Shown one piece after another: positions 5,698 to 38,460 of a stretch of DNA of 38,460 bases. Made by a program: the position numbers and the translations under genes. Numbering within the stretch: the first letter of the stretch is position 1; the number at the start of each line of letters is the position of its first letter. A model generated the notes under the pieces. The model did not search any database, was not told where the DNA came from, and saw only the letters and a list, made by a program, of their open reading frames with translations. The stretch comes from a virus (lineage: Duplodnaviria; Heunggongvirae; Uroviricota; Caudoviricetes). The stretch is taken from the IMG/VR virus record IMGVR_UViG_3300045911_000760. One strand, given 5' to 3'.

Positions 5698-7131
5698 GCC
5701 GTGCAGGAGCGAGCCGTTCAGGAGCGAGCCGTTCAGCTCCGAGCTCCAGCACTCGTTCTGTGCGCCTTTGCGCCGGACCCGCTCCAGAACCCTTGACATA
5801 CCGCGGGGGCAGCCTACCTTCCCCGCGCCGGCGACGCCTGGGGTCCCAGGTGGTCCACCCTGCGAAGGTGGCGGAATGGCAGACGCACCAGCTTGAGGTG
5901 CTGGCGGGGTAACTCCCGTGGAGGTTCGAGTCCTCTCCTTCGCACAGCCAAAAAGAGCGGTGCCGGGTGGTGTAAGGCACCACCTGGCACGCTCTGACGG
6001 TGGCTCTGCCCCAGTATCCGCCCCAGAAAGGCCCGAGGGGGGTGCGCCAAGTTGGGCAAGAACCGAGATCGCCTCGGTCTCGTTCGCGTGGGCGTAGCGG
6101 TTCGTCGTGGTCGTCTGCTTGTGACCGACGAGGAAGGCGGCGCCGATCAGGTTGCCCGTCGTCATGAGCTCGGTCGTTCGCACGTGGCGGAGGTCGTGCA
6201 GGTGGACCCGCTCAGCCAGCTCAGGTGGCATAACCTTCGCGGCCGCCTTGCGGATCGTGGAGCGGAAGTCGCGGTCGGCGAACACCTGACCTCCGGCTTG
6301 CACGGGCAGGGACTCGAGGAGTTCCACCGCCCTGGGCGTGAGCGGCACGCGCCGCCCCCACCGGTTCTTGTCGGCGTCCGCGGTGATCTTCAGGAAGGTC
6401 TGCCCGCGGCTCCAGTGCGTACCCACGCGGAAGCGCCACCAGAAGCCTGCACGGAGCCCTGTCTCGAGGAGGATTTCGACCAGACCCCGAATGGGCCATC
6501 GGATACCGTCGACGCGACTGCGCCGAGAGAACTCAGGCAGGTGGGGCAGCATCGCACGGACAAGCTCGACCGTGAGACCTTCGGTGTGCCCTCGGTTGCC
6601 GTGCTTGTGCCGGGTACCCTGAGCCTTCCCTGGGCGCGGCGGGAACTTCGGCAGTTCGGTGATCCACCCGTGCGTCTCGGCGAACACCAGGACCTGACGG
6701 AGCGTGGAGAACTCCTTTTTCACGGTCTCGTAGGTCACCTCCTTCAACCGGCGAGCTTGGTACGACGCCAGGGCTCCCGTGGTGACGTCGGAAAGGCGTG
6801 GGAATGCTGGGACGAGGTGTGCCGAGAGGTGCATCGTCCGTAGCTCGGCTGTCTCTTGCGAAATCTCACCGCCGGTCTTCTCGAGCAGGTACGAAGCCCC
6901 GACCTCCGCGAGCTTGGCGTGAGGGTCCGACCCTTGGATTGGCTTGCCCCATCTCCCCGCCAGGACGTCTGCGACCATGACGGCGCCCCAACGGGACGCC
7001 GCAGCCCCGTCGGTGCTCTTCAGCGTCGAGTTTGAGAAGTCGAAGCGTCGACCCTGGTGACTGAACCGGCAGCGCCAGCGCTTGTTGATCTCGTCCCAGA
7101 CTACTCTGGGAGCCTTGGGCTTACCCGCCAT
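5230..7131 (-). CDS. int: Tyrosine integrase; ORF continues through the tRNA into host DNA
   Basis: ATG at 7131 (MAGKPK). Catalytic motifs ETGLR, HDLRH, VGH, NRY. No stop before the tRNA; first stop is at 5230-5232. Confidence 0.9.
   Translation of the reverse strand: MAGKPKAPRVVWDEINKRWRCRFSHQGRRFDFSNSTLKSTDGAAASRWGAVMVADVLAGRWGKPIQGSDPHAKLAEVGASYLLEKTGGEISQETAELRTMHLSAHLVPAFPRLSDVTTGALASYQARRLKEVTYETVKKEFSTLRQVLVFAETHGWITELPKFPPRPGKAQGTRHKHGNRGHTEGLTVELVRAMLPHLPEFSRRSRVDGIRWPIRGLVEILLETGLRAGFWWRFRVGTHWSRGQTFLKITADADKNRWGRRVPLTPRAVELLESLPVQAGGQVFADRDFRSTIRKAAAKVMPPELAERVHLHDLRHVRTTELMTTGNLIGAAFLVGHKQTTTTNRYAHANETEAISVLAQLGAPPSGLSGADTGAEPPSERARWCLTPPGTALFGCAKERTRTSTGVTPPAPQAGASAIPPPSQGGPPGTPGVAGAGKVGCPRGMSRVLERVRRKGAQNECWSSELNGSLLNGSLLHGSVLHALGEQAGQRLQQLTHFEGLPHPGRETSLGFFGHPVRVTADEQEGCLRRLAADLVEPTAEILLDGGQVEERSVEHRPTCEHLREVLCAGRDEHLGPLGLEAELEQRGDRGVVFDDQNARPDEHFERGRVWGGAGTKPGGARAWPDHLEASAA
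5696..5736 (+). repeat. 15-bp tandem repeat (about 2.7 copies)
   Basis: gagccgtgcaggagc gagccgttcaggagc gagccgttcag, directly after the kinase stop. Confidence 0.85.
5793..5820 (+). promoter_or_regulatory. Sigma70-type promoter of tRNA-Leu
   Basis: TTGACA (5793-5798), 16-bp spacer, TACCTT (5815-5820), about 40 bp upstream of the tRNA. Confidence 0.7.
5862..5944 (+). tRNA. tRNA-Leu(GAG); likely integration site
   Basis: Acceptor GCGAAGG/CCTTCGC, anticodon arm CCAGC-TTGAGGT-GCTGG, long variable arm, T-loop TTCGAGT; CCA not encoded. Confidence 0.97.
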
Positions 7132-12103: not shown

Positions 12104-12126
12104 GGTCAGCCCGCTATGTTCCCCCC

Positions 12127-12720: not shown

Positions 12721-12743
12721 CCCGGCCAGGTGACCAGGACGAA

Positions 12744-12773
12744 ACCCACCTTTCGGCGCTCCGGAAGGTGGGT
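12744..12773 (+). terminator. 13-bp hairpin after the repressor gene
   Basis: ACCCACCTTTCGG-CGCT-CCGGAAGGTGGGT; no U-tract. Confidence 0.45.
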
Positions 12774-12888
12774 CAGGTCCCAAATGTCACCTGAATTGTG
12801 GTGCCTTCGCCGCGGCGAATGGCTACGCTTGTAGTCACGGGGTCCGCTGGAGGGCCTCGGTTCCACCTCTACGGCGGAGCTTTGTCCG

Positions 12889-13374
12889 ATGAACGCACTG
12901 GTCAAGCCACTCTGGAAAGACATGCGGGAACGGCGTGTGAAGCCCCTGGAGCTTCTCACGGAGCTCGGGCTTTCGGAGCCGCCGGTGGACCCGTTCTTCA
13001 TCGCGCGCGCCCTGGGCGTGACGGTCGAATGCGACGATTTCCCTTACGAGGGGGCCCTCGACTCGACCGGCGCGAGCCCGGTGATCCACGTTCGGGCATC
13101 GGACATCACGCCACGGCAGCGGTTCACGGCGGCCCACGAGCTCGGGCACCTCATCCTCCACCCGTTGGGCGAGTTCTTCCGAGACGAGAAGTTGGGTGGG
13201 CGTCGAGGTCTCCGCGAGGTGCAAGCGAACCGGTACGCCGCAGAGCTGCTGATGCCGGCGCTGTGGGTCCGCGAACGCCTGTGGCGCGGCGAGAAATTCG
13301 ACGACCTGATGGCAACGTTCGGTGTCTCACGCTCGGCACTGATGGCCCGGCTGGAGGCGCTTGCCGCATTCTGA
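12889..13374 (+). CDS. ImmA/IrrE-family metallopeptidase
   Basis: PVDPFFIARALG...RQRFTAAHELGHL...EVQANRYAAELLMP. Confidence 0.88.
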   Translation: MNALVKPLWKDMRERRVKPLELLTELGLSEPPVDPFFIARALGVTVECDDFPYEGALDSTGASPVIHVRASDITPRQRFTAAHELGHLILHPLGEFFRDEKLGGRRGLREVQANRYAAELLMPALWVRERLWRGEKFDDLMATFGVSRSALMARLEALAAF

Positions 13375-29405: not shown

Positions 29406-30328
29406 AGAACCGACAAGGCTACCTCCACATCCACGACACGTTGGTCCAAGTCTGGGAGGACGAAGTCGACAGCGACGGACTGTTCCAGGTGTTCCGCCGC
29501 GCGCTCGCGCGAATGCGGAAGCGTGGCTGGGAGCTCCAGCGCGACCCCGAAGTGGAGAAGCGATACCCGTCAATCGCCCGCACCCACTGGGTGGGTCGCA
29601 AGGGCGACTTGGAGGTCGAGCTGGAAACAGCTGGGCGTTGCCTCAAGGTTGGCTTCTTCCAGAACGTCTCGTTCGAGAACCCGAACGGCGGGCGCTACGA
29701 CTTCCAAAAACTGAAGCGAATGGCCGCGGCATCTCGCTCCATGCGCCTTCAGTGCCTGGCCGAGATGCACGTCCTGGCTCGGTTCCTCCATGAGACTTGG
29801 GGCTACCCGCTGAAGGTTCGCGACGGATTCGGGCATCGACCCGTCGAGATCACCCCGCTCGTTGTCCGCGACATCGCGGAGGACCGCCGAGACGGTCCTC
29901 CGTTGGAGATCTTCAACCGGGATTGGGGTTCCGATCGCTTCGAGCGCGACGAGACGGGATGGCCGTCGCAGAAGGAAATCTCCACCTGCTGGAGCCGTCA
30001 CGACCGACACGGGAAGCTCATCACCCAGGGGGTCACGAAGTACATCCGAGACAGGGGAGGACGGCTCGCGCGGGGACAGGTATTCGGGGGCATCAACGGG
30101 AACTGGTGGTTCGTGTCGAACGGCTCCGTCATCGAGCATGTACACGCGGCGGAGTGCTTCGACTGCGAAGACCCGGAAATCTTCGATCGGAGGTCGAAGA
30201 ACGCGGTGCACCTGCTGCGCCTCCGGGAGGAGCTCGCCAAGGCCACCAAGGCCGAGGACTACCGGCGCGTCGCGACGCTGGGCGCGGTGCTCGCTCGGTT
30301 CACCACAAAGCGGCAGGAGGCAGCGTGA
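29402..30328 (+). CDS. Hypothetical phage protein
   Basis: 308 aa, GTGA coupled; FFQNVSFENPNGGRYDF. Confidence 0.7.
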   Translation: MKNRQGYLHIHDTLVQVWEDEVDSDGLFQVFRRALARMRKRGWELQRDPEVEKRYPSIARTHWVGRKGDLEVELETAGRCLKVGFFQNVSFENPNGGRYDFQKLKRMAAASRSMRLQCLAEMHVLARFLHETWGYPLKVRDGFGHRPVEITPLVVRDIAEDRRDGPPLEIFNRDWGSDRFERDETGWPSQKEISTCWSRHDRHGKLITQGVTKYIRDRGGRLARGQVFGGINGNWWFVSNGSVIEHVHAAECFDCEDPEIFDRRSKNAVHLLRLREELAKATKAEDYRRVATLGAVLARFTTKRQEAA

Positions 30329-30672
30329 GCGACGAATTCTACATCCTCTCTCTCAAGTGGTCCGTGGACCAAAACGGGAAGCCGCTTCCGCGCCGAAAGA
30401 GTGGCTGGCAGCCGGGCGACCAGTTCGTGCTCATCTGGTGGGCGCCTGACGCCAAGGGGTACACGCGCTGCCTGGAGAACGCTGGCCGGTACACACGGGC
30501 GCAGATCGACGCGGCTCCCGGCTACTACAACAACGGCGAGACGACATGCGCCGTCCCCTGCGAAGTCGTTGAGGCTCACGCCAACCGGATGACTGGAGAT
30601 TGGCACATGCACACGTTTCGCACGGCGAGCGGTAGGGCTTTCGCGTCGACCGACGAGCAGGAGACCGCGTGA
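30325..30672 (+). CDS. Conserved phage hypothetical protein
   Basis: FYILSLKW...WWAPDAKGYT...AGRY. Confidence 0.7.
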   Translation: MSDEFYILSLKWSVDQNGKPLPRRKSGWQPGDQFVLIWWAPDAKGYTRCLENAGRYTRAQIDAAPGYYNNGETTCAVPCEVVEAHANRMTGDWHMHTFRTASGRAFASTDEQETA

Positions 30673-31112
30673 ACTGCCTGCAGCCCGAGCCCCTGTTCCT
30701 CTTCTGCCCTGCGTGCGGCAGTCAGCACGAGGACCTCGGCGAGTGGGCGACGCGCCCCCACCGAACGCACCTCTGCCTGTTCTGCAAGCACGAGTGGAGA
30801 CCGCACGAGCACCCGACCGTTGGCGTGGCACTCCCAGCCGTCGGTGAGGAGCTACGATGCATCATCCTTCCCCACGCGGTGTTCGCGAGCCTCGACGAGT
30901 ATTCGTGCACGATGCCGACAGGTCCGCGCGTTGGGCGCTTCTGGCGGAGAAGGTGGCCGTTCCGCGCGCCAGACCGCACCGGGATTCAGAACCTCGCCGT
31001 CGTGACCCCTGGACCGGATGGCGCTGACTACAACTTGATCGTCTGGCGGCGTCTTTACGTCGCCGAGTGGCTGTTTGTGGATGCGCTGGTGAGCGCTGCG
31101 AGGGCTGCTTGA
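30669..31112 (+). CDS. Hypothetical Zn-binding protein
   Basis: CPACGSQH...HRTHLCLFCKHEW. Confidence 0.6.
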   Translation: MNCLQPEPLFLFCPACGSQHEDLGEWATRPHRTHLCLFCKHEWRPHEHPTVGVALPAVGEELRCIILPHAVFASLDEYSCTMPTGPRVGRFWRRRWPFRAPDRTGIQNLAVVTPGPDGADYNLIVWRRLYVAEWLFVDALVSAARAA

Positions 31113-31471
31113 ACTGCGGACACTGGGGAAACCTTGCGCGGCGCAAGCTCGGAGCGCTACCCGAAGGCTTTGAGTTCTTCGAGATTCGCGCGACCAAGTG
31201 GGGCACGATGCTGAAGGGCGGCGTCGCGACCGTCACGAAGTCCGGCAAGAACAAGGGCCGGAAGCGCTGGGGCGGGCCGCACCTGACCGCGATCGTCACC
31301 GACGAAGAGTACCAGGCCGAGCTAGCACGGTACGAGCGCGAGACCGGAAACTGCCACGAGTGCTTGGGCGAGAAGCAGACCGTGGCCGGTTGGCACCACC
31401 AGACGGGCTGGAGCTATCGCACGTGCCACCGCTGCAAGGGGAGCGGTAAGGCTCCGGAGAGCAGGACATGA
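31109..31471 (+). CDS. Hypothetical protein with DnaJ-like Zn finger
   Basis: CHECLG...CHRCKGSG; TTGA overlap used as the start. Confidence 0.6.
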   Translation: MNCGHWGNLARRKLGALPEGFEFFEIRATKWGTMLKGGVATVTKSGKNKGRKRWGGPHLTAIVTDEEYQAELARYERETGNCHECLGEKQTVAGWHHQTGWSYRTCHRCKGSGKAPESRT

Positions 31472-31812
31472 CCTCGGCGGAGCGGAAGCCACGTCGGTTC
31501 CGCATGGTCGACATGGGCGACGGAAAGCTGACGCGCGTCATGGTCGTCGAGAACCGCGGACACGATGGCTACGTCGTCCGGTGGACGCAGTCTTGCTCCG
31601 GGTGCCACGAGACCAACGAGGGCTACGAGACGGGACTCTACCCCTACGACGAGAAGGCCCAGTGCTACGTCGGCGCGGGGTGCAGTGAGTGCGGGTACAC
31701 AGGTAAGCGTCGCATGGAGTGGTGGATCCCGTTCGACCCGCGCGCGGAGAAGGACATCGAACGCCAGATCGACGAGGAGATTCGCTGGCAAGAGGAGCGA
31801 GAAAGCGCATGA
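31468..31812 (+). CDS. Hypothetical Cys-motif protein
   Basis: CSGCHE...GCSECGYTGKRR. Confidence 0.6.
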   Translation: MTSAERKPRRFRMVDMGDGKLTRVMVVENRGHDGYVVRWTQSCSGCHETNEGYETGLYPYDEKAQCYVGAGCSECGYTGKRRMEWWIPFDPRAEKDIERQIDEEIRWQEERESA

Positions 31813-32441
31813 CGTTCTGTGACCGCGAAGCCCTCGCGTCCGCCAGTCTCGACGGCGAGACGCACGTGATTGAACCGCTCCCCAGGCTCGCGATCTCCGT
31901 TCATGCCCCCTGGGCCTGGGCCCTGCTCTACGGCGGCAAGGACATCGAGAACAGGGCTCCCAACTTCCCAATGCGACACCGCGGCGCGCCGGTGCTCGGA
32001 GACGTGTGGTTGCACGCAAGCCTGTGGCCAGGGCGGGGGCCACTACGCGACTTCTCGGACGCCAAGGCGGCGTTTGTGGCGGAAGGGCAACGCATGGTCG
32101 AGACCATGTGGGAGTCGCAGGGCTGGCTCGACGAGACCTATGACATCCGGAACACGAAGTGCCTGGCGCGCCTGTACGCGCTGACCGAGGAGAAGCTCGG
32201 GGTCTCGGTCCCGAAGACGTCGGAACTCAACAACCTGCGCGGCCACATCGTCGGCCGCCTCCGCGTCACCGGCCACCGCGACCCACGCGACCCACCGGAA
32301 TCCGCCTGGTACGTCCTCGGGAGCAAGGCGGTGCTCGTGGAGGCTCCGCGTCCGCTGGCTACGCCGGTGCTCTGCAAGGGCGCGCTGGGGTGGTGGCCCG
32401 TGCCCGACGACGTGATCGAGCAGCTCCGGGTGGCAGCGTGA
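31809..32441 (+). CDS. ASCH-domain protein
   Basis: ISVHAPWAWALLYGGKDIENR...WLHAS...KGALGWW. Confidence 0.8.
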   Translation: MTFCDREALASASLDGETHVIEPLPRLAISVHAPWAWALLYGGKDIENRAPNFPMRHRGAPVLGDVWLHASLWPGRGPLRDFSDAKAAFVAEGQRMVETMWESQGWLDETYDIRNTKCLARLYALTEEKLGVSVPKTSELNNLRGHIVGRLRVTGHRDPRDPPESAWYVLGSKAVLVEAPRPLATPVLCKGALGWWPVPDDVIEQLRVAA

Positions 32442-32839
32442 AGCGCACACCCCTCGAGCGAAAAACCCCGCTCGTGTCCAAGTCGAAGCTCGAGTCGTCG
32501 AAGCTGCTCACGCGGACCAAGCCCATGCCGAAGAAGCGCGCCAAGCCTCGCAAGGGGCCGCCGCGCGATCCGAAGTTCCTCGCGTTCGTGCGGTCGCAAC
32601 CCTGCTACATCCTCGGGTGCTTCGAGAAGGCGGAAGCCCACCACTTCGGAAGGCGCGGCAAGTCGCAACGCTGCTCCGACTACGAAACCGTGCCCCTCTG
32701 CCACGACCACCACATGGCCTGGCACTCGAGCACGGGCCTACCGGGCAAGACGCGCGCCGAGTGGAAGGAGCTTTGGGCAGCCTACGCCGTGGAGCTCCGA
32801 GCGCAGTTCGAGGGGCATCGCGACGAACAAACTTTCTGA
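32438..32839 (+). CDS. DUF968/NinG-like His-Cys protein
   Basis: FLAFVRSQPC...AEAHH...DYETVPLCHDHH. Confidence 0.75.
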   Translation: MKRTPLERKTPLVSKSKLESSKLLTRTKPMPKKRAKPRKGPPRDPKFLAFVRSQPCYILGCFEKAEAHHFGRRGKSQRCSDYETVPLCHDHHMAWHSSTGLPGKTRAEWKELWAAYAVELRAQFEGHRDEQTF

Positions 32840-32843
32840 CTGC

Positions 32844-32941
32844 CGCCGTCAAAAAGGTTTTGACATCGAAACCGCACGGGACTACCTTACTGAGTGTCGC
32901 AAGGGAAACCCAAGCGGCAAGCCGGCCCCGGGCTACGGGGT
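32844..32941 (+). promoter_or_regulatory. Cassette promoter P1 with leader hairpin
   Basis: TTGACA 32860-32865, N17, TACCTT 32883-32888; hairpin GCCCCG-GGCTA-CGGGGT 32925-32941. Confidence 0.85.
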
Positions 32942-32964
32942 GTTCGTTGAAAACGGAGTCTCTC

Positions 32965-33273
32965 ATGATCGAGGTCACAATCCTCATCCCCCTCTTCTCC
33001 AACGACGGAAAGAGGTTCTCGCGCTCTCACCACGCGAAGTTCGAAGCGCTCCTAGCGCGGACCTTCGGTGGCGTGACCGCCCTCCCCGGTGAAGCCCGGG
33101 GCGTGTGGCTGGATGGGGGCACCCGGTACGATGACCAGCTCATCGGCTACCTGGTCGCCCTGCCCAGCATCACGGACGGCGGGAAGCTCGGACGAGTAAT
33201 CGACCGAGCGAAGCGCCACTACCGGCAAGAAGCCATCTTCTTCCGGTACCTGGGGAGAGCCGAGATCAGGTGA
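32965..33273 (+). CDS. Small protein, possibly P-II/DUF3574-like fold
   Basis: ILIPLFSNDG...TFGGVT...GVW...YRQEAIF; GGAG RBS, ATG at 32965. Confidence 0.6.
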   Translation: MIEVTILIPLFSNDGKRFSRSHHAKFEALLARTFGGVTALPGEARGVWLDGGTRYDDQLIGYLVALPSITDGGKLGRVIDRAKRHYRQEAIFFRYLGRAEIR

Positions 33274-33280
33274 GGCTTCG

Positions 33281-33310
33281 GGGAGGGGGTCGGGAAACCG
33301 GCCCCCTCCC
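33281..33310 (+). terminator. 13-bp GAAA-tetraloop hairpin between cassette-1 genes
   Basis: GGGAGGGGGTCGG-GAAA-CCGGCCCCCTCCC; no U-tract. Confidence 0.55.
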
Positions 33311-33338
33311 GCTTCGATGATCCCAACCGGAGCGAGCC

Positions 33339-34148
33339 ATGCCAGCCAAACGCATCACCTACGAAACCACGCTCGGAGAGCGCATCCAGTACCCGGAGCC
33401 TGCTCCGGAGGTGGCGGCGTACCTCGACCGCGTGAAGCGCGCCGCCGAGGACCCGAAGGTCAGCGAAAACGCCCTGATCGATCTCGTCTACAGCGCGGAG
33501 AACCCGTTGCTCGAGAAGGGGCATTTCGAGTCCCGGCCGGACCGCGGAGCGGTCACCACGAAGACCCTGAAAAACCCCATCTACCACGTGATGGCGGACC
33601 TGCTGCAGCTCAAGGCGATCAAGCTTGGCAGGGCGTCGGCGGCGGACCTCGAGGCCAGCTACACGCAGAGCGTTTCCGACGCGGCGCGGGCGCTGGGGAT
33701 CTCGGAGACGGCCGTCAGGAAGGCGATTCACGCGGGCAAGCTCGTCGCGATCGAGAAGTCCTTCGGGTACCTCATCGACCCGCGATCAACGGAGGACTAC
33801 GGGGCCAACCGCAAGCCCCGCGGGGGCGCTCGGGAGCCAGCGCTGCGGCTGGCCTACGGCAACGAGCCGGGGAAGTCGTTCCGGGCGAAGTTCGCGGGGA
33901 TCCGGCGCGGAAAGCAGGAGAAGTTCAAGGACGGGCAGATCACCCCGTGCGAGGTCGACACCTTCGAGCGGGGGATCTTCATCATCACGGGACGGGAGAT
34001 GCATCGGGCCTTCGTCGTGGTGCCGTCGTCGCGCGTGCACCGGTACGAGCACGGGCGCTTCTTCATCGAGGGGCGATTCAAGTTCGCGGAGAAGATCAAC
34101 AACCCCGAGGCCGCTTCGAAGGCGTTCCGGGAGTTCGAGCCAAGCTGA
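33339..34148 (+). CDS. Protein with central HTH_17-type DNA-binding domain
   Basis: SVSDAARALGISETAVRKAIHAGKLVA...YLIDP. Confidence 0.8.
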   Translation: MPAKRITYETTLGERIQYPEPAPEVAAYLDRVKRAAEDPKVSENALIDLVYSAENPLLEKGHFESRPDRGAVTTKTLKNPIYHVMADLLQLKAIKLGRASAADLEASYTQSVSDAARALGISETAVRKAIHAGKLVAIEKSFGYLIDPRSTEDYGANRKPRGGAREPALRLAYGNEPGKSFRAKFAGIRRGKQEKFKDGQITPCEVDTFERGIFIITGREMHRAFVVVPSSRVHRYEHGRFFIEGRFKFAEKINNPEAASKAFREFEPS

Positions 34149-34184
34149 GCTGGGCGCGCTCGGCCCTCGGGACTATCTGCGCCC

Positions 34185-34272
34185 CGATGTCGAAAAAGTT
34201 TTGACATCGAAACCGACTCACGGTAGATAACAGGAGTCAGCACGACGAACCGAGCCCCAGCGGTCCTGGGGC
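34185..34272 (+). promoter_or_regulatory. Cassette promoter P2 with inverted repeat and leader hairpin
   Basis: CGATGTC-N11-GACATCG; TTGACA 34201-34206, N17, TAGATA; hairpin GCCCCAG-CGGTC-CTGGGGC 34254-34272. Confidence 0.85.
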
Positions 34273-34294
34273 GCCTCTCGGAAAGCAGGAACAA

Positions 34295-34462
34295 ATGGCC
34301 AAGAAGCCCTATCAAGGAACGAACGACGTCTGGTACCGCGGTGAGTACGCGGTGGTCCCCGTGGTCGGCGGATACCAGGTGGTGAACACGCGGACCGCGC
34401 GCCGCAGCACGCCGAAGACGAAGATTCGAGCCCTTCGGCTCCTCATCAAGGTGACTCGCTGA
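34295..34462 (+). CDS. Small basic protein (55 aa), absent from ORF track
   Basis: CAGGA RBS; MAKKPYQGTNDVWYRGEYAVVPVVGGYQVVNTRT...KVTR*. Confidence 0.65.
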   Translation: MAKKPYQGTNDVWYRGEYAVVPVVGGYQVVNTRTARRSTPKTKIRALRLLIKVTR

Positions 34463-34553
34463 GTCCGACGCCTGCCACCGGCCTCGAGGGGGAGACCTCC
34501 CGGGGCCGCGGCAGGCGCCGCACCCGCGTGCCTGGGAAAAACTGAGGGACGAC

Positions 34554-34874
34554 ATGGCGAACAGCATCGCGACAACCATCCTGGCCCAACTCGGCGGAAC
34601 CGGTCGGCTCGTGACGATGATCGGGGCTCACAACCTCATCGACTGCGGCAAGGGGCTGTCGCTTAGCTTCCGTGGCTGCCGCAAGGCGAACCGGCTGATC
34701 ATCACACTGGACGAAAGCGACACCTACACCGTGGAGCTCGGCAAGTTCTCGCGGTGCTCCTACACCACCGTCTACCAGGCCAGCGGGATCTACGCCGACG
34801 GGCTCCGCCAGGTCATCGAGAACGAGACCGGCCTTTACCTGAGCCTCGGCACCCTGGGTAGGGGCGCGGCGTGA
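34554..34874 (+). CDS. Conserved mobile-element small protein
   Basis: IATTILAQLGG...MIGA...ANRLIITLDESDTYTV...GIYADGL...ETGLYLSL; a pattern I recognise from phage/plasmid early regions, function unknown. Confidence 0.75.
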   Translation: MANSIATTILAQLGGTGRLVTMIGAHNLIDCGKGLSLSFRGCRKANRLIITLDESDTYTVELGKFSRCSYTTVYQASGIYADGLRQVIENETGLYLSLGTLGRGAA

Positions 34875-35065
34875 ACACTCACGGAGCCGGCATCCACGGG
34901 CCCTACCGGGCCCCGGTGTTCTACGTCGACGACAGGCAGAACGTCGTCGACGGCTGGTTCGTGAGCCGCCGCGGGGCCGCCGTGCGCGTGCTTCTCTCCG
35001 GTCGCCCTGGGGTGACCCGCACCGTCCACGCGCGTTACGTGTTCACGCGGTGGGCGCCGGCCTGA
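34871..35065 (+). CDS. Hypothetical protein
   Basis: 64 aa, GTGA coupled. Confidence 0.55.
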   Translation: MNTHGAGIHGPYRAPVFYVDDRQNVVDGWFVSRRGAAVRVLLSGRPGVTRTVHARYVFTRWAPA

Positions 35066-35079
35066 GATGTTCTTTTTGG

Positions 35080-35160
35080 TGGAAAGGTTTTGACATCGCA
35101 ACCTGGGCGCCCTAGTCTCTCCCTTGTCACCACGACACCGGGCTTCGGCGGTACCGAGGC
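35080..35160 (+). promoter_or_regulatory. Cassette promoter P3 with leader hairpin
   Basis: TTGACA 35090-35095, N17, TAGTCT 35113-35118; hairpin GCTTCGG-CGGTA-CCGAGGC 35142-35160. Confidence 0.88.
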
Positions 35161-35183
35161 GCCTTCAAGAAATCGAGGACCCC

Positions 35184-35495
35184 ATGGCCTACACCGAGAC
35201 GACCTGGAAGCGCTGGAACAACAAGGGGCAGAAACTCCTCGTTGCCTACCGCCTGGGAGACAAGGTGCACGAGGAGCTGGCCCGCGTGTGCGACAAGCTG
35301 AGCGACCACCGGCGCTGGATCGGCAAGGGCGACGAGGAGCTCCGCCAGGCGATGCGCGAATCGTTCGACCAGCACTATGCCTCGCGGCGTATCGCTCTCG
35401 ACGTGGAGCGCGAGCGACTCGGGTGCCCACGACGTCGAGAGCTGAGTGGCACGGAGTCCGCATACGAGGCGGAACTCCGGCTGATGAGGCGCTGA
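35184..35495 (+). CDS. Hypothetical protein
   Basis: GAGGA RBS, ATG at 35184 (MAYTETTW); followed by a GGGGCCCC hairpin. Confidence 0.7.
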   Translation: MAYTETTWKRWNNKGQKLLVAYRLGDKVHEELARVCDKLSDHRRWIGKGDEELRQAMRESFDQHYASRRIALDVERERLGCPRRRELSGTESAYEAELRLMRR

Positions 35496-35546
35496 CGCCG
35501 CAAGGGGCCCCACGGGGCCCCCACAAACTTTTGTCCGATGTTCCGT

Positions 35547-35628
35547 TAGAAAAGTTTTGACATCGCAACTGAACGGGCCTAAGTTCTTCTTGTCACCGCG
35601 ACACACCGAGCCCCGGCGGTACCGGAGC
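35547..35628 (+). promoter_or_regulatory. Cassette promoter P4 with leader hairpin
   Basis: TTGACA 35557-35562, N17, TAAGTT 35580-35585; hairpin GCCCCGG-CGGTA-CCGGAGC 35610-35628. Confidence 0.88.
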
Positions 35629-35651
35629 AACCCCTCGAAAAGGAACAGACC

Positions 35652-36422
35652 ATGACCCCCACTGCTGAAGTTGCGAAGGAACTCCGCCTGGCCCTCAAGA
35701 CCGAGCTCGGACTCGGGCCACGCGAGGTGAGCGTCCGCACCGACAACTACTCCCTCGGGAGCTCGATCGACGTCACGATCAAGGTCCCCGGGATCCTCAA
35801 AGACAAGGTCGAGGAGATCGCCAAGCGCTTCGCGCGCATCCAGTACGATCACGCGACGGGCGAGATCCTCTGCGGCGGCAACCGCCATGTGCACGTCGAG
35901 TACGCGCACCGGCTCTCCCTGGACCTGCAGGCGAAGTACGGTGCACTCCTGCCGCAGGAGGACGGCGGGGAGGCGACGATCGCTCCTGGCGCGACGGTTC
36001 GGCGCGAGCGCGAGTACTTCCGGTTCTTCCTGAACGGAGACGAGGCGCGCTACTGCTGGGGCGAGGGACTCGCCTCCATCTACTGGGCGGAGCTCGAGAT
36101 CGAGGCGGCTGCTGCGGCCGAAGCGGCTGCGCAGCTGACCGGGATCGATGCCGCGCTGTACGCCCTGCAGGGACTCTCCTCGGAGTCGGACCTCGCGGAC
36201 GTCGCCCATGGGCACATCGGCGAGGCGCTCCGTCGGCTGGACCTCGGTGACCTCTTCGGCGCTGCCCAGTTCGCCGGGCGCGCCGACTGGGCGACCTTCG
36301 ACGAGCGCGGACCGGTACGGGACGCTGTGGAGCTGGCGATCGAAGCGCTCCGCGCCCGGGTCGAGCAAGCGCAGGGCATCGCGCGCTTCGAGCAGGGCGC
36401 TCGGGAGGTGGCGGCGGCGTAG
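35652..36422 (+). CDS. LPD29-like (large polyvalent protein-associated) domain protein
   Basis: EVAKELRLALK...VSVRTDNYSLGSSIDVTIK resembles the LPD29 N-terminal pattern; AAGGA RBS. Confidence 0.65.
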   Translation: MTPTAEVAKELRLALKTELGLGPREVSVRTDNYSLGSSIDVTIKVPGILKDKVEEIAKRFARIQYDHATGEILCGGNRHVHVEYAHRLSLDLQAKYGALLPQEDGGEATIAPGATVRREREYFRFFLNGDEARYCWGEGLASIYWAELEIEAAAAAEAAAQLTGIDAALYALQGLSSESDLADVAHGHIGEALRRLDLGDLFGAAQFAGRADWATFDERGPVRDAVELAIEALRARVEQAQGIARFEQGAREVAAA

Positions 36423-36601
36423 CGCCGCGCGTGAGCGAGCCAGGGGCGGACATCGCCCCCGGCCCGGCTCCGGCTCCTGCCCTCGGGTTCCTCGAGGTCG
36501 GGCGCGGGCGCCGAGCCCGAAACGAAGTGGGCCCCGCGACGGCGGCAACCGTCCGGGACCCAGGCCACACCCAACCCCAGTTTCAGAAGGACAGGTGCGA
36601 C

Positions 36602-36832
36602 ATGCCGACCGATACCACGACCCAGCACGACGACCAGAACGCCGAGGCCAAAGGACTCACCCTTTCCGCCGAAGCCGCCGGCGAACTCCGCGCCGCGATG
36701 CGCGCGATGCGTGACCACGCGGACGAGCTCCAGAAGAGCCTGGCGGGGCGCCCCGAACTCGAGCGCGAAGCCGCCGCAGCGGAGCAGCTTGCGGTCTCTC
36801 TGGAGCAGGCAGGGAGGGCGCTCGGGGGCTGA
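36602..36832 (+). CDS. Small helical protein
   Basis: AAGGA upstream; ATG at 36602 (MPTDTT). Confidence 0.55.
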   Translation: MPTDTTTQHDDQNAEAKGLTLSAEAAGELRAAMRAMRDHADELQKSLAGRPELEREAAAAEQLAVSLEQAGRALGG

Positions 36833-36913
36833 CCGCGGGAACGATGGCGCGGGCGGGGGGCATCTCCGCCCGCGCCTCGCGCAACCTCCGAGCGCTCCGT
36901 CCGAAGAGCCCCC

Positions 36914-37087
36914 ATGCACCACGTCGTCATCCCCCTCGACCACGAGGGGCGCTGGATCCTTGTCACCGTGACGCCTGCCCGTGGAGCGTTGGAGCCGCCG
37001 GGGCTGGTCGTGATGACGGAGGGGAGCCTCCAGAAGTGCGAATCGGTCCGGGTCAAGCTGCTCGACGAGACGCCGACGCTGGCGTGA
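36914..37087 (+). CDS. Small hypothetical protein (57 aa)
   Basis: MHHVVIPLDHEGRWILV...ETPTLA*. Confidence 0.4.
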   Translation: MHHVVIPLDHEGRWILVTVTPARGALEPPGLVVMTEGSLQKCESVRVKLLDETPTLA

Positions 37088-37280
37088 AGAGCAACACGGT
37101 CAAGTATGCGGAATCACCAGGCTTTTTCTGACCTGTAAGGACTTCAGGTCGCAGTTCAGCAACTCCGCTCCCCGACACAGCCGTTTTCGGCTCCCGGAGC
37201 CAGCAAGCATCCCGTCCCGCTCAACAAAACCTCGGGCGTTCGGAAGCTCCGTAGCCGGAGGCGTGGGCGCATGCTGATTG

Positions 37281-37297
37281 TGCTTGCTGGGCAAGCA
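37281..37297. promoter_or_regulatory. Perfect 7-3-7 inverted repeat upstream of the P63C gene
   Basis: TGCTTGC-TGG-GCAAGCA. Confidence 0.55.
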
Positions 37298-37319
37298 TAG
37301 ATGGTGCATAAGTGGTGGC

Positions 37320-38339
37320 ATGTCCGAGTCAACTGCCAAGCGCGGGGGCGAGGCCCGAGCCGCTTCGCTCAGTCCTTCGAAACGGAAGGCCATTGCCCAA
37401 GCGGCAGCGATGGCCAGGTGGTCGAGCGAGGGCAAGTTGTCGCTCAGGGTAGCCAAGTACGGTGCCCCGGGCCGCCCGCTACGCATCGACAACATCGAGA
37501 TCCCTTGCTTCGTCCTAGACGACGGGACCCGAGTGATCGTGCAGCGCGGCGTCCACGCGGGGATCGGTCTGAGCGAAGGTGGCACATCGAAGGGCGCCTC
37601 GCGCCTGGTCGCGCTGATGAACTCGTTGCTCTCGCGTGGCGTGGACATCAAGGGCTTGGCGTCGCGCCTGGAGACGCCGATCCGATTCGTCCCCCCGCAG
37701 GGCGGCGGAGCCGCGTACGGCTACGAGGCGACCATCCTCCCGGACATCTGTGCCGTGGTCCTGGAGGCTGCCCGGCTCGGCAAGCTGAAGAAGAACCAGG
37801 CGAAGCTTTCGCGCACCTGTTCGATCCTTCAGCACGCGTTCGCGACGGTCGGCATCATCGCGCTCGTCGACGAGGCGACGGGCTACCAGGAGGTCCGGGC
37901 TCGCGATGCCCTCGCCGAGATCCTCGAGAAGTTTGTCCAGAAGGAGCTACGTCCCTGGGTGAAGACCTTCCCGCCGGAGTACTACGAGCAGATCTTCCGG
38001 CTCAACAGGTGGGAGTTTCCGGAGGACATCCGCTACCCGTCCGTCCTGGGGCACTGGACGAACAACATCGTCTACAAGCGCCTCGCCCCTGGTGTGCTCG
38101 AGGAGCTCAGGAACGTGACCCCGAGGTATCCGAGCGGGCGACTGAAGCATCGGCTCTTCCAGCACCTCACCGAGGACATCGGGCATCCGAAGCTCCGGGA
38201 GCACTTGGCGGGCGTGCTCATGCTCATGAAGTACTCGCCTGACTGGCGCGTTTTCATGGACCGCCTGGACAAGGAGTACCCCCAGTTCGGCGGGAACCTC
38301 ATGCTCCCGTTCCCGGACGACTACAGGGCCCCCGAATGA
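37320..38339 (+). CDS. P63C-domain protein
   Basis: GGEARAASLS...AARW N-terminus; IPCFVLDDGTRV; GIIALVDEATGYQ; WVKTFPPEYY. Confidence 0.88.
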   Translation: MSESTAKRGGEARAASLSPSKRKAIAQAAAMARWSSEGKLSLRVAKYGAPGRPLRIDNIEIPCFVLDDGTRVIVQRGVHAGIGLSEGGTSKGASRLVALMNSLLSRGVDIKGLASRLETPIRFVPPQGGGAAYGYEATILPDICAVVLEAARLGKLKKNQAKLSRTCSILQHAFATVGIIALVDEATGYQEVRARDALAEILEKFVQKELRPWVKTFPPEYYEQIFRLNRWEFPEDIRYPSVLGHWTNNIVYKRLAPGVLEELRNVTPRYPSGRLKHRLFQHLTEDIGHPKLREHLAGVLMLMKYSPDWRVFMDRLDKEYPQFGGNLMLPFPDDYRAPE

Positions 38340-38460
38340 CGCGGTCGACCCCGGCCGGCTTCGACATGCGCGACCAGGAGTACCTCGGCGCGCCCGCTGC
38401 GCTCGCCACCCGGTCGGCTCCGCACGAGCTCTACGCCGCCCTTGCGCGCCTCGACCACGA
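38336..38460 (+). CDS. Partial CDS running off the window
   Basis: ATG overlaps the P63C stop (ATGA); open to the window end. Confidence 0.45.
   Translation, partial: MTRSTPAGFDMRDQEYLGAPAALATRSAPHELYAALARLDH

What the first reader, a model, noticed from the sequence alone, without database searches (positions are those of the whole stretch)
32844..36422. Array of four near-identical promoter-hairpin-RBS cassettes driving small genes
Seen: four copies of AAA(A/G)GTTTTGACATCG(A/C)AAC at 32860, 34201, 35090 and 35557, each exactly TTGACA-N17-TAnnn(T/A), followed by a leader hairpin, RBS and 1-3 unrelated short ORFs. Known: T4-type PeSL elements (promoter-early-stem-loop) have this layout and promote modular gene shuffling, and anti-defence genes sit behind strong repressible promoters. 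Inference: a shuffleable, repressor-controlled early/anti-defence cassette system in a temperate myxophage, which I do not know to be described.
Basis: partly seen in the sequence, partly recalled or inferred. Interest (0 to 1): 0.82.

Follow-up and report, generated by a model that had tools for sequence, protein, structure and literature searches.

The report
Shared promoter-leader modules heading phage morons
Four accessory gene units in an integrated phage of a probable myxobacterium each start with a copy of the same host-type promoter, operator-like repeat and RNA hairpin; relatives gain, lose and swap these units whole, and the founding unit probably pairs a SAM-lyase-like anti-defence enzyme with its own DNA-binding regulator.

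Summary
AAARGTTTTGACATCGMAAC occurs exactly four times, all on the + strand (0.01 expected by chance). Each copy is TTGACA-N17-TAnnn(T/A), followed by two leader hairpins, a ribosome site and unrelated genes.

The hexamers match the host tRNA-Leu promoter in the same window, so these are sigma-70-type promoters. The -35 sits in a 16-bp near-palindrome. The same register is 6/8 palindromic in one related lineage and 8/8 in another, which suggests an operator.

The second leader hairpin covaries (88% paired, 4 of 7 pairs changed on both sides).

Metagenomic relatives lack P2-g55-terminator (362 nt), lack P3-g103-terminator-P4 (527 nt), or carry other genes. Breakpoints recur at terminator, promoter and hairpin edges.

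The conserved core is P1-g102-g269. It persists down to 39% protein identity.
- g102 has a fold whose only strong solved match is a phage SAM lyase (Z 10.2; next 7.7).
- g269 has an Xis/BldC-like winged helix.

This resembles an acr-aca-type self-repressed anti-defence operon whose promoter-leader was copied onto three moron-like units.

The layout is PeSL-like in evolutionary behaviour but not a PeSL in anatomy. Regulation, transcription and anti-defence activity are inferred, not shown. This scan has already reported PeSL-like cassettes in several lytic phages on other DNA.

The parts
32831..32964 (+). Module 1 (P1). Upstream inverted half-site GTCAAAA at 32848-32854; 16-bp near-palindrome GTTTTGAC|ATCGAAAC at 32857-32872; -35 TTGACA at 32860-32865; -10 TACCTT at 32883-32888; HP1 at 32895-32919; HP2 (CCCCG-GGCUA-CGGGG) at 32925-32941; RBS GGAG.
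32965..33273 (+). g102: 102-aa PII/CutA-like protein whose best solved match is the phage SAM lyase Svi3-3. It is the first gene of the conserved operon.
   Evidence: Model pLDDT 87. 6zm9 gives Z 10.2 over 101 residues and is the only Z>=8 hit among 48,161 chains. The family has 724 cluster representatives. Weak Pfam S-AdoMet_lyase hits in 2 of 54 members.
33339..34148 (+). g269: 269-aa DNA-binding protein with three parts, an N-terminal alpha/beta domain, an Xis/BldC-like winged HTH (about residues 107-146) and a C-terminal beta-sandwich. It is the candidate regulator of the four promoters.
   Evidence: Pfam HTH_17 below cut-off. Model pLDDT 87. Pukovnik Xis 4j2n matches at rmsd 1.1 A over 44 aa. 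It always follows g102 in relatives.
34172..34294 (+). Module 2 (P2). 25-bp palindrome CGATGTCGAAAAAGTTTTGACATCG at 34185-34209; near-palindrome at 34198-34213; -35 at 34201-34206; -10 TAGATA at 34224-34229; HP1 at 34236-34246; HP2 (CCCCAG-CGGUC-CUGGGG) at 34254-34272.
34295..34462 (+). g55: small, very basic protein (pI 11.1).
   Evidence: Homologs follow P2 in L179, L224, L230 and L237.
34466..34521 (+). Long GC hairpin ending the P2-g55 unit, terminator-like but without a U-tract. Its 3' edge (34519-34523) is a breakpoint in three independent variants.
   Evidence: Fold gives -46.9 kcal/mol, z -2.2. Breakpoints.
34554..35065 (+). g106 (phrog_9437, 34554-34874) and g64 (34871-35065), with overlapping stop and start codons.
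35066..35183 (+). Module 3 (P3). Near-palindrome at 35087-35102; -35 at 35090-35095; -10 TAGTCT at 35113-35118; HP1 UGUC-ACCAC-GACA at 35125-35137; HP2 (CUUCGG-CGGUA-CCGAGG) at 35142-35160.
   Evidence: The promoter part 35064-35120 is absent in L240.
35184..35495 (+). g103: 103-aa ORFan. It is followed by the GC hairpin GGGGCCC-CACG-GGGCCCC at 35504-35521 and then ACUUUUGU.
   Evidence: It is deleted in L240, leaving a 3' remnant.
35528..35651 (+). Module 4 (P4). Near-palindrome at 35554-35569; -35 at 35557-35562; -10 TAAGTT at 35580-35585; HP1 at 35592-35602; HP2 (CCCCGG-CGGUA-CCGGAG) at 35610-35628.
   Evidence: Homology with variant L238 starts at 35545.
35652..36422 (+). g256: acidic 256-aa protein. 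The Atlas model of its N-terminal 150 aa resembles LPD29 (polyvalent-protein domain) clusters.
   Evidence: TM 0.69 by the hit; a lead only. Homologs in L224, L237, L238 and L240.
5793..5945 (+). Host tRNA-Leu (5862-5945) with its promoter TTGACA-N17-TACCTT (5793-5821). This is an internal reference showing what a host promoter looks like.

Best explanation
The four sites are host sigma-70-type promoters. Each is fused to a common operator-like repeat and a two-hairpin 5' leader, and each heads its own transcription unit in the accessory (nin-like) region of an integrated temperate phage.

The original unit is the operon P1-g102-g269. g102 is a small SAM-lyase-like enzyme, probably a counter-defence function that is harmful if over-made. 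g269 is a DNA-binding protein that most likely binds the GTnTTGAC half-sites around the -35 and shuts the promoter off after a burst, as Aca proteins do for anti-CRISPR operons.

In this lineage the promoter-operator-leader (about 110 nt) was copied in front of three further moron-like units: P2-g55-terminator(-g106-g64), P3-g103-terminator, and P4-g256 and onward. All of them would therefore answer to the same switch.

The repeated modules and the GC hairpins at unit ends are the places where relatives differ. Whole units are inserted, deleted or replaced there by recombination between leader copies and by microhomology joins.

Shown: the motif, the promoter geometry, hairpin covariation, unit-level variation among relatives, conservation of the g102-g269 operon, and the folds.

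Inferred: transcription from these sites, binding by g269, repression, SAM-lyase activity, and any role in defence.
For: 1. Promoter.
- There are four exact copies, with 0.01 expected by chance.
- All are TTGACA-N17-TAnnn(T/A) with an A-tract upstream.
- The only other TTGACA-N17-TAnnnT on the + strand of the window is the host tRNA-Leu promoter. Its -10, TACCTT, is the same as P1's.

2. Operator.
- The 16 nt centred after TTGAC are palindromic at 5-6 of 8 pairs here, 6 of 8 in L181 and 8 of 8 in L235 (GTGTTGAC|GTCAACAC), all in the same register. P(>=6/8) is 0.004 and P(8/8) is 1.5e-5.
- P1 and P2 also carry an inverted half-site upstream. In P2 this makes a 25-bp palindrome.
- Copies within one genome are alike but differ between lineages. 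In L181 they are 45/45 identical, while the flanking genes are 72% identical to the window.
- The g269 recognition helix is identical where the operator is identical (window and L230) and differs in L235 and L181.

3. Leader.
- HP2 is 88% paired across 11 distinct leaders, and 4 of 7 pairs show changes on both sides.
- The covariation score is 0.306 against 0.153 in shuffles (0 of 500 reach it), and slid controls score lower.
- Loops are conserved: CGGU-N in one type and GGCUA/GGCAA in the other.

4. Unit-level variation.
- A wastewater contig joins 34156 to 34519 (no P2-g55-terminator) and 35061 to 35589 (no P3-g103-terminator-P4). A compost run has the same second joint.
- L240 lacks the P3 promoter and g103 but keeps a g103 3' remnant.
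- L179/L180 and L238/L239 replace 34524-35544 with other genes.
- L224/L237 and L230-232 diverge exactly at the 3' edge of HP2.

5. Core operon.
- g102 followed by a g269 homolog is found in every relative, down to 39% identity in a contig of 74.5% GC. That contig has its own TTGAC promoter, GTGT(C/T)GAC repeats and a CCCGG-CGCUU-CCGGG hairpin.

6. Folds.
- g102 matches phage SAM lyase 6zm9 at Z 10.2, rmsd 2.7 A, over 101 of 102 residues. It is the sole Z>=8 hit among 48,161 chains; the next scores 7.7.
- The most conserved residues of the g102 family are G46, W48, D57 and Q88. The SAMase conserved set is Gly56, Tyr58, Glu69 and Gln104 (PMC7877911).
- That paper also reports that T3 SAMase is toxic at higher expression.
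- The central domain of g269 is Xis/BldC-like.

7. Published parallel. acr-aca operons have a consensus promoter with an inverted repeat inside the core promoter, then small gene(s), then an HTH repressor gene (PMC9410906).
Against: - There is no transcript, start-site or binding data of any kind.
- The -10 hexamers are weak (3-4 of 6 positions). P2's -10 lacks the final T, and the generic promoter scan found none of the four.
- The dyad is only 5-6 of 8 in this phage and 1 of 8 in that register in the distant relative L242.
- Xis/BldC-type domains often bind direct repeats as monomers or head-to-tail arrays, so a symmetric operator is not required.
- Co-variation of helix and operator rests on three lineages and could simply reflect general divergence.
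- g102's residue-by-residue match to SAM-lyase catalytic residues was not verified. hhalign against T3 SAMase is weak (E 0.011, probability 3.8%) and does not place D57 opposite T3 Glu68.
- The fold is a common ferredoxin-like one.
- Leader folding energies are no better than shuffled sequence (z -0.9 to +0.1).
- One recombination boundary (34058) lies inside g269, not at a module edge.
- Pfam, PHROGs and PADLOC say nothing about the function of g55, g64 and g103.
Confidence: 0.55

Rival explanations
1. True PeSL-type mobile cassettes. The promoter copies themselves would be the recombination substrates. Crossovers between neighbouring copies would excise cargo as mini-circles that re-insert at other copies, with the stem-loop serving as a terminator for upstream transcription.
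For: The repeated unit is about 100 nt, with an AT-rich tract, a consensus -35 and a hairpin, placed upstream of ORFans in a variable region. These are the PeSL features in PMC2839356. The 35061-to-35589 joint is what recombination between leaders 3 and 4 would give, starting from an L240-like form. GC hairpins precede P2 and P4.
Against: The conserved, covarying hairpin is downstream of the start site and has no U-tract. Most breakpoints lie at terminator 3' edges, at the promoter 5' edge or at the HP2 3' edge. They carry 2-3 nt of microhomology or short fillers and leave no hybrid promoter behind. There are only four copies, against about 50 in phi1 and RB49. P1-g102-g269 is fixed in all relatives. 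No circle junction was sought or seen.
Confidence: 0.2
2. Unregulated morons. The four sites would be ordinary constitutive host promoters that express accessory genes from the repressed prophage for the benefit of the lysogen. The near-palindrome would be a by-product of an A/T-tract plus TTGAC, and the similarity of copies would reflect only recent duplication or gene conversion.
For: P2-g55-hairpin is present or absent as one block between relatives, which is the textbook sign of a moron (definition in PMC3594210). UP-like A-tracts are usual in strong promoters. L242 lacks the dyad in this register. The 45/45 identity in L181 looks like conversion.
Against: A perfect 16-bp palindrome in L235 and 6/8 dyads in two other lineages sit in one register. 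The bases just after the -35 (TCGMAAC) are conserved, although RNA polymerase does not read them. An HTH gene is invariably linked to P1. The GC content of the cargo equals that of the rest of the phage, unlike typical morons.
Confidence: 0.2
3. The leader hairpins are the functional heart. They would be nut/boxB-like or put-like sites that load an antitermination factor (perhaps the small basic g55), letting transcription run through the GC hairpins between units.
For: The stem covaries while the pentaloop is conserved, as expected for a protein-recognised RNA hairpin. Hairpins sit just downstream of each promoter and are kept where the promoter has decayed or is deleted (L224, L240 and the wastewater contig). 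g55 is arginine/lysine-rich with pI 11.1. Each unit ends in a strong hairpin.
Against: No Rfam family matches. Variants lacking g55 keep the hairpins. No boxA-like element was recognised. In the wastewater variant the g64 reading frame runs through the leader, so the hairpin cannot be essential there. A 5' stabilising hairpin explains the same data more simply.
Confidence: 0.1

Closest known systems
PeSLs (promoter-early stem-loops) of T4-type phages phi1 and RB49 (Arbiol et al. 2010, PMC2839356)
   Same: A repeated intergenic unit of about 100 nt with an AT-rich tract, a consensus sigma-70 promoter, a GC hairpin, SD and ATG. It sits upstream of ORFans in a variable region, and close relatives differ by insertion, deletion or replacement of the flanked genes.
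   Different: Here the phage is temperate and integrated, in a host of 66-72% GC, with four copies rather than about 50. The conserved hairpin is in the transcribed leader and is not a terminator. The -35 lies in an operator-like dyad. Most breakpoints are at unit edges rather than between two promoter copies. Mini-circles were not tested.
Morons of lambdoid and other temperate phages (HK97/HK022; Cumby, Davidson and Maxwell 2012, PMC3594210)
   Same: These are independent promoter-gene-terminator units present in one phage and absent from a close relative. P2-g55-hairpin (362 nt) behaves exactly like this.
   Different: Classical morons are single, each with its own promoter and often a deviant GC content, and they are expressed from the repressed prophage. 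Here four tandem units share one promoter-operator-leader, their GC matches the rest of the phage, and their expression state is unknown.
acr-aca operons (Aca1/Aca2 autorepression; Shehreen et al. 2022, PMC9410906)
   Same: A strong consensus promoter with an inverted repeat inside the core promoter, then small counter-defence gene(s), then an HTH gene in the same operon. The architecture is conserved while the operator sequence differs between families.
   Different: g269 is larger (269 aa, three domains) and its DNA-binding domain is Xis/BldC-like rather than a classical Aca HTH. g102 is not a known Acr. The same operator-promoter also heads three further units that lack an HTH gene. No binding or repression has been shown.
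T3 early region: host promoters A1-A3, leader hairpin R0.3, then gene 0.3 SAMase (NC_003298; PMC7877911, PMC8406200)
   Same: A SAM-lyase(-like) gene is the first gene behind strong host-type promoters and a structured leader, and its enzyme family is harmful when over-expressed.
   Different: T3 is lytic, and its hairpin is a long RNase III site. g102 is shorter (102 against 152 aa) and related only at the level of fold, with a weak profile signal.
phiC31 early promoters with conserved inverted repeats bound by the c repressor (recalled from memory; no open paper was found)
   Same: A temperate phage of a high-GC host with many near-identical early promoters and a repeated operator spread through the early region.
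   Different: This comparison was not checked here. phiC31's promoters are not sigma-70 consensus, and its repeats are bound by the immunity repressor.

Membership tests
PeSL (PMC2839356) | Repeated intergenic motif of about 100 bp containing a sigma-70 consensus promoter with an AT-rich tract upstream | tested here: met
   Four copies, each TTGACA-N17-TAnnn(T/A) with an AAAAG(G) tract. Similarity spans about -57 to the ATG.
PeSL (PMC2839356) | Stem-loop within or next to the promoter (upstream of the start site) that terminates or attenuates upstream transcription | tested here: not met
   The conserved, covarying hairpins HP1 and HP2 lie downstream of the -10 in the leader and have no U-tract. 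Separate, non-conserved GC hairpins do precede P2 and P4.
PeSL (PMC2839356) | Insertions, deletions and replacements between close relatives are bounded by the elements | tested here: met
   Joints 34156>34519 and 35061>35589; L240 deletions; L179/L238 replacement of 34524-35544; L224 and L230 diverge at the HP2 edge. One boundary (34058) lies inside a gene.
PeSL (PMC2839356) | Mini-circles formed by recombination between neighbouring elements | not testable with these tools
   Only assembled contigs were available. No circular junction could be sought in raw reads.
Moron (PMC3594210) | Own promoter and terminator flanking the gene(s) | tested here: met
   P2-g55-hairpin at 34466-34521 (-46.9 kcal/mol) and P3-g103-hairpin at 35504-35521. 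The terminators lack clear U-tracts.
Moron (PMC3594210) | Present in one phage and absent at the same place in a close relative | tested here: met
   Wastewater and compost contigs lack 34157-34518 and 35062-35588.
Moron (PMC3594210) | GC content different from neighbouring genes | tested here: not met
   The region 32-36 kb is 64-67% GC, like the rest of the phage. GC3 of 0.81-0.91 matches the other phage genes.
Moron (PMC3594210) | Expressed from the repressed prophage | not testable with these tools
   No RNA holder of the stretch was listed.
acr-aca-type autorepressed operon (PMC9410906) | Inverted repeat within the core promoter | tested here: met
   A 16-bp dyad over the -35: 5-6 of 8 pairs here, 6 of 8 in L181 and 8 of 8 in L235, all in the same register.
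acr-aca-type autorepressed operon (PMC9410906) | HTH gene downstream of small gene(s) in the same operon, conserved as a pair | tested here: met
   g102 followed by g269 in all relatives down to 39% identity. wHTH confirmed.
acr-aca-type autorepressed operon (PMC9410906) | The HTH protein binds the repeat and represses the promoter; the upstream gene inhibits a defence system | not testable with these tools
   Needs EMSA, reporter and defence assays.
Phage SAM lyase (Svi3-3/T3 SAMase; Pfam PF23780) | PII-like ferredoxin fold of Svi3-3 | tested here: met
   6zm9 at Z 10.2, rmsd 2.7 A, 101 aligned residues. It is the only Z>=8 hit among 48,161 representative chains. Foldseek E 1.3e-5, TM 0.71.
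Phage SAM lyase (Svi3-3/T3 SAMase; Pfam PF23780) | Sequence match to the family model | tested here: inconclusive
   g102 itself has no Pfam hit. Two of 54 family members hit PF23780 at E >= 0.007, and 5 of 54 hit DUF3574. hhalign against T3 SAMase gives E 0.011.
Phage SAM lyase (Svi3-3/T3 SAMase; Pfam PF23780) | Conserved Gly56, Tyr58, Glu69 and Gln104 (Svi3-3 numbering; PMC7877911) | tested here: inconclusive
   The g102 family conserves G46-x-W48, D57 and Q88(-E89) in the same order with similar spacing. No residue-level structural alignment could be printed, and hhalign does not pair D57 with T3 Glu68.
nut/boxB-type antitermination site | Short hairpin with a conserved loop downstream of an early promoter, with a boxA element and a cognate small arginine-rich protein | tested here: inconclusive
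   The hairpin with conserved pentaloop and covarying stem is met. No boxA was recognised. The basic g55 is absent from variants that keep the hairpin. No Rfam match.

The most novel reading that the evidence does not exclude
The array would be a small anti-defence regulon of a new kind. It would start from an ancient, widespread operon in which a SAM-lyase-like enzyme is held in check by a three-domain Xis/BldC-like repressor. The promoter-operator-leader of that operon would have been copied as a portable 'plug' onto newly acquired genes. Each new counter-defence gene would then be born already wired to the same burst-then-shut-off switch, and the copies would act as the seams along which such genes are traded between temperate phages of Myxococcota and their relatives in compost and wastewater.
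Probability: 0.2. Interest if true: 0.7.

Novelty: new variant of a known kind. Interest (0 to 1): 0.5.

Why it matters
It gives a worked natural example, from six or more metagenomic variants, of how accessory genes of a temperate phage are gained and lost as whole promoter-to-terminator units. It suggests that a regulatory module can spread within a genome so that new cargo inherits an existing control circuit.

It also flags an unnamed family of about 102-aa phage proteins (724 cluster representatives) as probable SAM-lyase relatives, linked in every relative whose context was examined to a putative regulator. If confirmed, this would extend SAM-depleting counter-defence and Aca-like control to phages of high-GC soil and mat bacteria. 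It would also supply compact, probably repressible promoters for Myxococcota genetics.

Tried and rejected
- **16-mer scans.** Scanning GTTTTGACATCGNAAC over genome contigs and viral contigs gave only single chance matches in unrelated taxa.
- **19-mer scans.** The 19-mer over metagenome contigs gave 46 loci, of which only L224 is a relative. Over viral contigs it gave 5 chance hits.
- **Motif in Myxococcaceae.** In 201 genomes there were 4 single 2-mismatch hits against 3 for the reversed control.
- **Phage database, DNA.** blastn of 32800-36500 found no match.
- **Related viral loci.** The search for related loci with the P63C protein and with g269 in viral contigs found none.
- **Whole genome.** None is held for this window.
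- **Downstream DNA.** Two start choices for the P63C gene were tried to fetch DNA beyond the window; neither is on record.
- **Rfam.** Searching 30000-38460 at E<=1 gave only a chance miRNA-like palindrome.
- **Generic promoter scan.** It lists none of the four sites because their -10 hexamers miss its rule.
- **g269 homodimer.** Complex prediction returned no answer (score 0.24, mark 0.42). This counts neither for nor against.
- **RNA runs.** No RNA holder of the stretch was listed. Runs labelled metatranscriptomic are flagged as probably DNA.
- **PADLOC.** Only the HTH of g269 touches a 'mad1' HTH model.
- **g102 against PDB by sequence.** Nothing meaningful was found.
- **g269 whole-model Foldseek.** No hit at E<=0.001; only the wHTH matches locally.
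- **g256 homolog search.** Only two near-identical proteins were found.
- **Conversion inside P2.** The idea that the window-versus-L179 difference in P2 is a conversion tract confined to the promoter was rejected. Thirty of 32 differences spread over 34058-34416, so the tract is a wider recombinant segment.
- **HP2 as an RNase III site or intrinsic terminator.** Rejected on size (5-7 bp) and the lack of a U-tract.

Full report
**1. The observation**

The 20-mer AAARGTTTTGACATCGMAAC occurs four times without mismatch, at 32853, 34194, 35083 and 35550, all on the + strand. No fifth site appears even at three mismatches in the 38,460-bp window. Shuffled sequence gives 0.01 matches on average.

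Every copy reads TTGACA, then 17 nt, then TACCTT, TAGATA, TAGTCT or TAAGTT. Aligning the four regions shows that similarity runs from about -57 to the start codon:
- an A-tract;
- the -35 and a conserved TCGMAAC;
- a variable spacer and the -10;
- a small hairpin at about +1 (HP1; UGUC-ACCAC-GACA in copies 3 and 4);
- ACCGAG;
- a GC hairpin (HP2; CCCCGG-CGGUA-CCGGGG type);
- GAAA, GGA(G) and ATG.

Leader 1 is a diverged type (GUCGC..GCGGC, then CCCCG-GGCUA-CGGGG).

**2. Setting**

- Bases 1 to about 5860 are host DNA of 71-73% GC and include a hybrid histidine kinase.
- tRNA-Leu lies at 5862-5945. A tyrosine-integrase ORF reads towards and across it.
- From there to the window's end, GC is 64-69% and almost all genes run rightward. 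They include an ImmR/ImmA-like pair (regulator plus M78 peptidase), two HNH nucleases, DUF3560, a DUF2800/PD-(D/E)XK nuclease, thymidylate kinase, a HerA-like ATPase and DUF968. The four cassettes follow, and then a P63C-domain protein of the kind found in the nin region of 933W-like phages.
- Earlier notes of this scan place contractile-tail genes and more of the same prophage over 40 kb beyond the window.
- Sequencing-run look-up shows the DNA comes from a hot-spring or microbial-mat metagenome. Partial relatives occur in compost, wastewater and sludge.
- The host kinase's nearest Atlas clusters are Myxococcota. However, the host flank has no DNA match in 201 Myxococcaceae genomes. 'Myxophage' is therefore plausible at phylum level only.

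**3. Are they promoters?**

The only other TTGACA-N17-TAnnnT on the + strand of the whole window lies 40 nt upstream of the host tRNA-Leu gene. It has the same -10, TACCTT, as P1. This internal control shows that the host uses this promoter type. The four sites are intergenic, correctly oriented, and 70-105 nt upstream of start codons with ribosome sites. All cargo ORFs have coding-type GC3 of 0.81-0.91.

The -10 hexamers are weak, and the generic scan misses all four. I found no RNA data. Promoter function is therefore a strong inference, not a demonstration.

**4. An operator-like repeat**

RNA polymerase does not read the bases just 3' of the -35, yet TCGMAAC is invariant. The 16 nt centred after TTGAC form a near-palindrome, GTTTTGAC|ATCGAAAC, with 6 of 8 pairs (5 of 8 in the C variants).

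Relatives found through the g269 protein carry different sequences at the same place and in the same register:
- L181 has CTATTGAC|GTCGAGAG (6 of 8 pairs).
- L235/L236 have the perfect palindrome GTGTTGAC|GTCAACAC (8 of 8 pairs). Chance is 1.5e-5 for 8/8 and 0.004 for 6/8 or better.

P1 and P2 also have an inverted half-site upstream. In P2 this makes the 25-bp palindrome CGATGTCGAAAAAGTTTTGACATCG.

Copies within a genome are alike but differ between lineages. In L181 the two copies are identical over 45 nt, while its coding DNA is only 72% identical to the window. This pattern is what a lineage-specific DNA-binding protein would produce, although gene conversion between copies would also produce it.

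In the most distant relative (L242) the register is not palindromic. However, the half-site GTGTTGAC sits on the -35, and a GTGTCGACAC palindrome lies upstream.

**5. The leader**

I aligned eleven distinct leaders from five lineages. HP2 is paired in 88% of cells, and four of seven pairs show changes on both sides (for example CCCCAG/CUGGGG, CUUCGG/CCGAGG, CCCGA/UCGGG). The covariation score is 0.306 against 0.153 in shuffles (0 of 500 reach it), and sliding the partner by one to three columns lowers all measures.

Loops are conserved (CGGUA/C/U, or GGCUA/GGCAA). Folding energies are not better than shuffled sequence in this GC-rich DNA, and no Rfam family matches.

HP2 has 5-7 bp and no U-tract, so it is neither an intrinsic terminator nor an RNase III site. 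It is kept where the promoter has decayed (L224/L237) or is missing (L240 and the wastewater contig). A 5' stabilising or protein-recognised hairpin fits best. An antitermination site is a weaker alternative.

**6. Cargo varies by whole units**

Relatives give at least six arrangements.

(a) *Window:* P1-g102-g269-P2-g55-T-g106-g64-P3-g103-T-P4-g256.

(b) *L179/L180, from the same spring.* These are 99.98% identical up to 34057 and 8% divergent over 34058-34523. They become unrelated immediately after the g55 hairpin. L238/L239 show another gene abutting P4, with homology resuming at 35545.

(c) *A 2792-nt wastewater contig.* It joins 34156 to 34519 (no P2-g55-T; 3 nt shared at the joint) and 35061 to 35589 (no P3-g103-T-P4 promoter). 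A compost contig has the same second joint.

(d) *L240, from compost.* g64 is joined directly to leader 3, so the P3 promoter at 35064-35120 is missing. g103 is deleted but its last 17 nt remain. P4 carries a TTGGCA -35.

(e) *L224/L237:* g55 homolog, hairpin, decayed promoter, HP2, g256 homolog.

(f) *L230-232.* These are identical to (e) up to the last base of HP2 and then carry a different gene.

L235 has a 91-aa gene and DUF3560 after P2, and L181 has a 54-aa gene and DUF932.

The g103 remnant shows that (d) arose by deletion from a window-like form. Form (c) is what recombination between leaders 3 and 4 of a (d)-like form would give.

Breakpoints therefore recur at four kinds of place: 34149-34157, 34519-34523, 35061-35064 with 35121/35589, and 35545 together with the HP2 3' edge. 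One boundary (34058) lies inside g269.

g106 belongs to phrog_9437 and has homologs in Vibrio, Rhizobium, Agrobacterium and jumbo phages, so the cargo is drawn from a wide pool.

**7. The fixed core**

g102 followed about 66 nt later by a g269 homolog is present in every relative recovered. This includes L182 (50% GC; 51% and 35% identity) and L242 (74.5% GC; g269 homolog at 39% identity, E 7e-56). L242 has its own TTGAC promoter and leader hairpin but no second promoter after the pair. The operon is therefore old, and the extra promoter copies are a feature of the window's lineage.

*g102.*
- It has no Pfam, PHROG or PADLOC hit.
- It folds with pLDDT 87 into a PII/CutA-like ferredoxin fold.
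- Against 48,161 representative solved chains, the phage SAM lyase Svi3-3 (6zm9) is the only hit with Z>=8 (Z 10.2, rmsd 2.7 A, 101 of 102 residues). The next hit scores 7.7.
- An exhaustive profile search finds 724 cluster representatives of this unnamed family.
- Across 54 diverse members, P9, W48 and Q88 are invariant, and N13, G36, G46, D57, Y62, G97 and E100 are at least 90% conserved.
- The SAMase paper names Gly56, Glu69 and Gln104 as the only strictly conserved residues, with Tyr58 stacking on the sulfonium. It also notes that T3 SAMase is toxic at higher expression (PMC7877911).
- The G-x-W ... D ... Q-E pattern of g102 is parallel in order and spacing. I could not print a residue-level superposition, however, and the profile comparison with T3 SAMase is weak.
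- Two of the 54 members touch Pfam S-AdoMet_lyase at E 0.007 or weaker.
- I put the chance that g102 is a SAM-lyase relative at about one half.

*g269.* It models well (pLDDT 87) as three domains. The central winged helix superposes on mycobacteriophage Pukovnik Xis (rmsd 1.1 A over 44 residues, 34% identity) and on BldC. Its recognition helix is identical in the window and in L230, which share the operator. It differs in L235 and L181, which do not.

**8. Mechanism proposed**

On entry or induction, host RNA polymerase fires the four promoters. The structured leaders stabilise the messages. g102, and perhaps other cargo such as the LPD29-like g256, act early. g269 accumulates and binds the GTnTTGAC repeats over the -35 of all four promoters, turning them down.

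This is the logic shown for acr-aca operons, which have a consensus promoter, an inverted repeat inside the core promoter, small gene(s), and an HTH repressor that is needed because unrestrained expression is harmful (PMC9410906). The steps from 'fires' onward are inference.

My odds:
- promoters: 0.85;
- one shared regulator: 0.55;
- that regulator is g269: 0.35;
- g102 is a SAM-lyase relative: 0.5;
- the array as a whole is anti-defence: 0.25.

**9. Comparison with known systems**

*PeSLs.* The array behaves like PeSLs in evolution, with repeated regulatory modules marking the seams of modular exchange (PMC2839356). It fails one anatomical criterion: the PeSL stem-loop is a terminator in or beside the promoter.

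*Morons.* P2-g55-T and P3-g103-T meet the comparative definition of morons (PMC3594210), except for deviant GC content and the untested expression in lysogens.

*Combination.* One operator-promoter-leader shared by a conserved regulator operon and by neighbouring morons in a temperate phage is a combination I did not find described. My literature search was limited.

*This scan.* It has already reported PeSL-like arrays in several lytic phages, so the general phenomenon is not new. I rate this a new variant of a known kind, with moderate interest.

Noticed in passing
window 5230-7158 (-) and 5862-5945 (+): The integrase ORF (642 aa as read; catalytic domain at residues 222-360) continues across the tRNA-Leu gene. 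The 3' end of int in the prophage would therefore be host-derived. This recalls the Mx8 arrangement (from memory), in which attP lies inside int and integration changes the C-terminus.
   Followed up: no
window 9399-10392 (-): ARAGORN calls a tmRNA (tag ANDNVTPLEAAA), a second tmRNA-like element and tRNA-Asn inside the phage-GC region, between the integrase side and the regulator genes. The 27-kb metagenome contig behind L179 would start near window 7540 and so includes them. Other first-stage notes already flag this RNA cluster.
   Followed up: no
L181:2273-2317 and 3593-3637: In a relative whose coding DNA is about 72% identical to the window, the two promoter copies are 45/45 identical to each other, including the spacer and -10. 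This suggests recent gene conversion or very strong constraint.
   Followed up: partly
window 36958-36975: A third copy of the HP1-like palindrome, CCTTGTCACCGTGACGCC (83% to the P3 copy), lies inside the 57-aa ORF at 36914-37087. It has no promoter and no HP2.
   Followed up: no
window 35652-36422: The Atlas model of the g256 N-terminal domain (1-150) resembles clusters carrying LPD29, a domain of 'polyvalent proteins' of phages and conjugative elements. Pfam itself gives no hit.
   Followed up: partly
window 12055-13374 (+): A regulator (phrog_1373-like) is followed by an M78/IrrE-type peptidase. This is an ImmR/ImmA-like pair that may be the induction switch of the prophage. The four-promoter motif does not occur near it.
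   Followed up: no
window 34871-35065 and the wastewater contig: In the variant with the 35061>35589 joint, g64 loses its stop codon. It would read through leader 4 and end at the TGA overlapping the g256 ATG.
   Followed up: no
L241 (NC_003298.1) 901-1359: In the RefSeq record of phage T3, gene 0.3 (the SAMase/SAM lyase) carries the product name 'SAM-dependent methyltransferase', which is misleading.
   Followed up: no
L230:1880-1930: After the promoterless leader hairpin, the L230-type variant has TTGCAT-N16-TAGACT in front of its alternative gene. This looks like a one-base-deleted relative of the TTGACATCG promoter.
   Followed up: no
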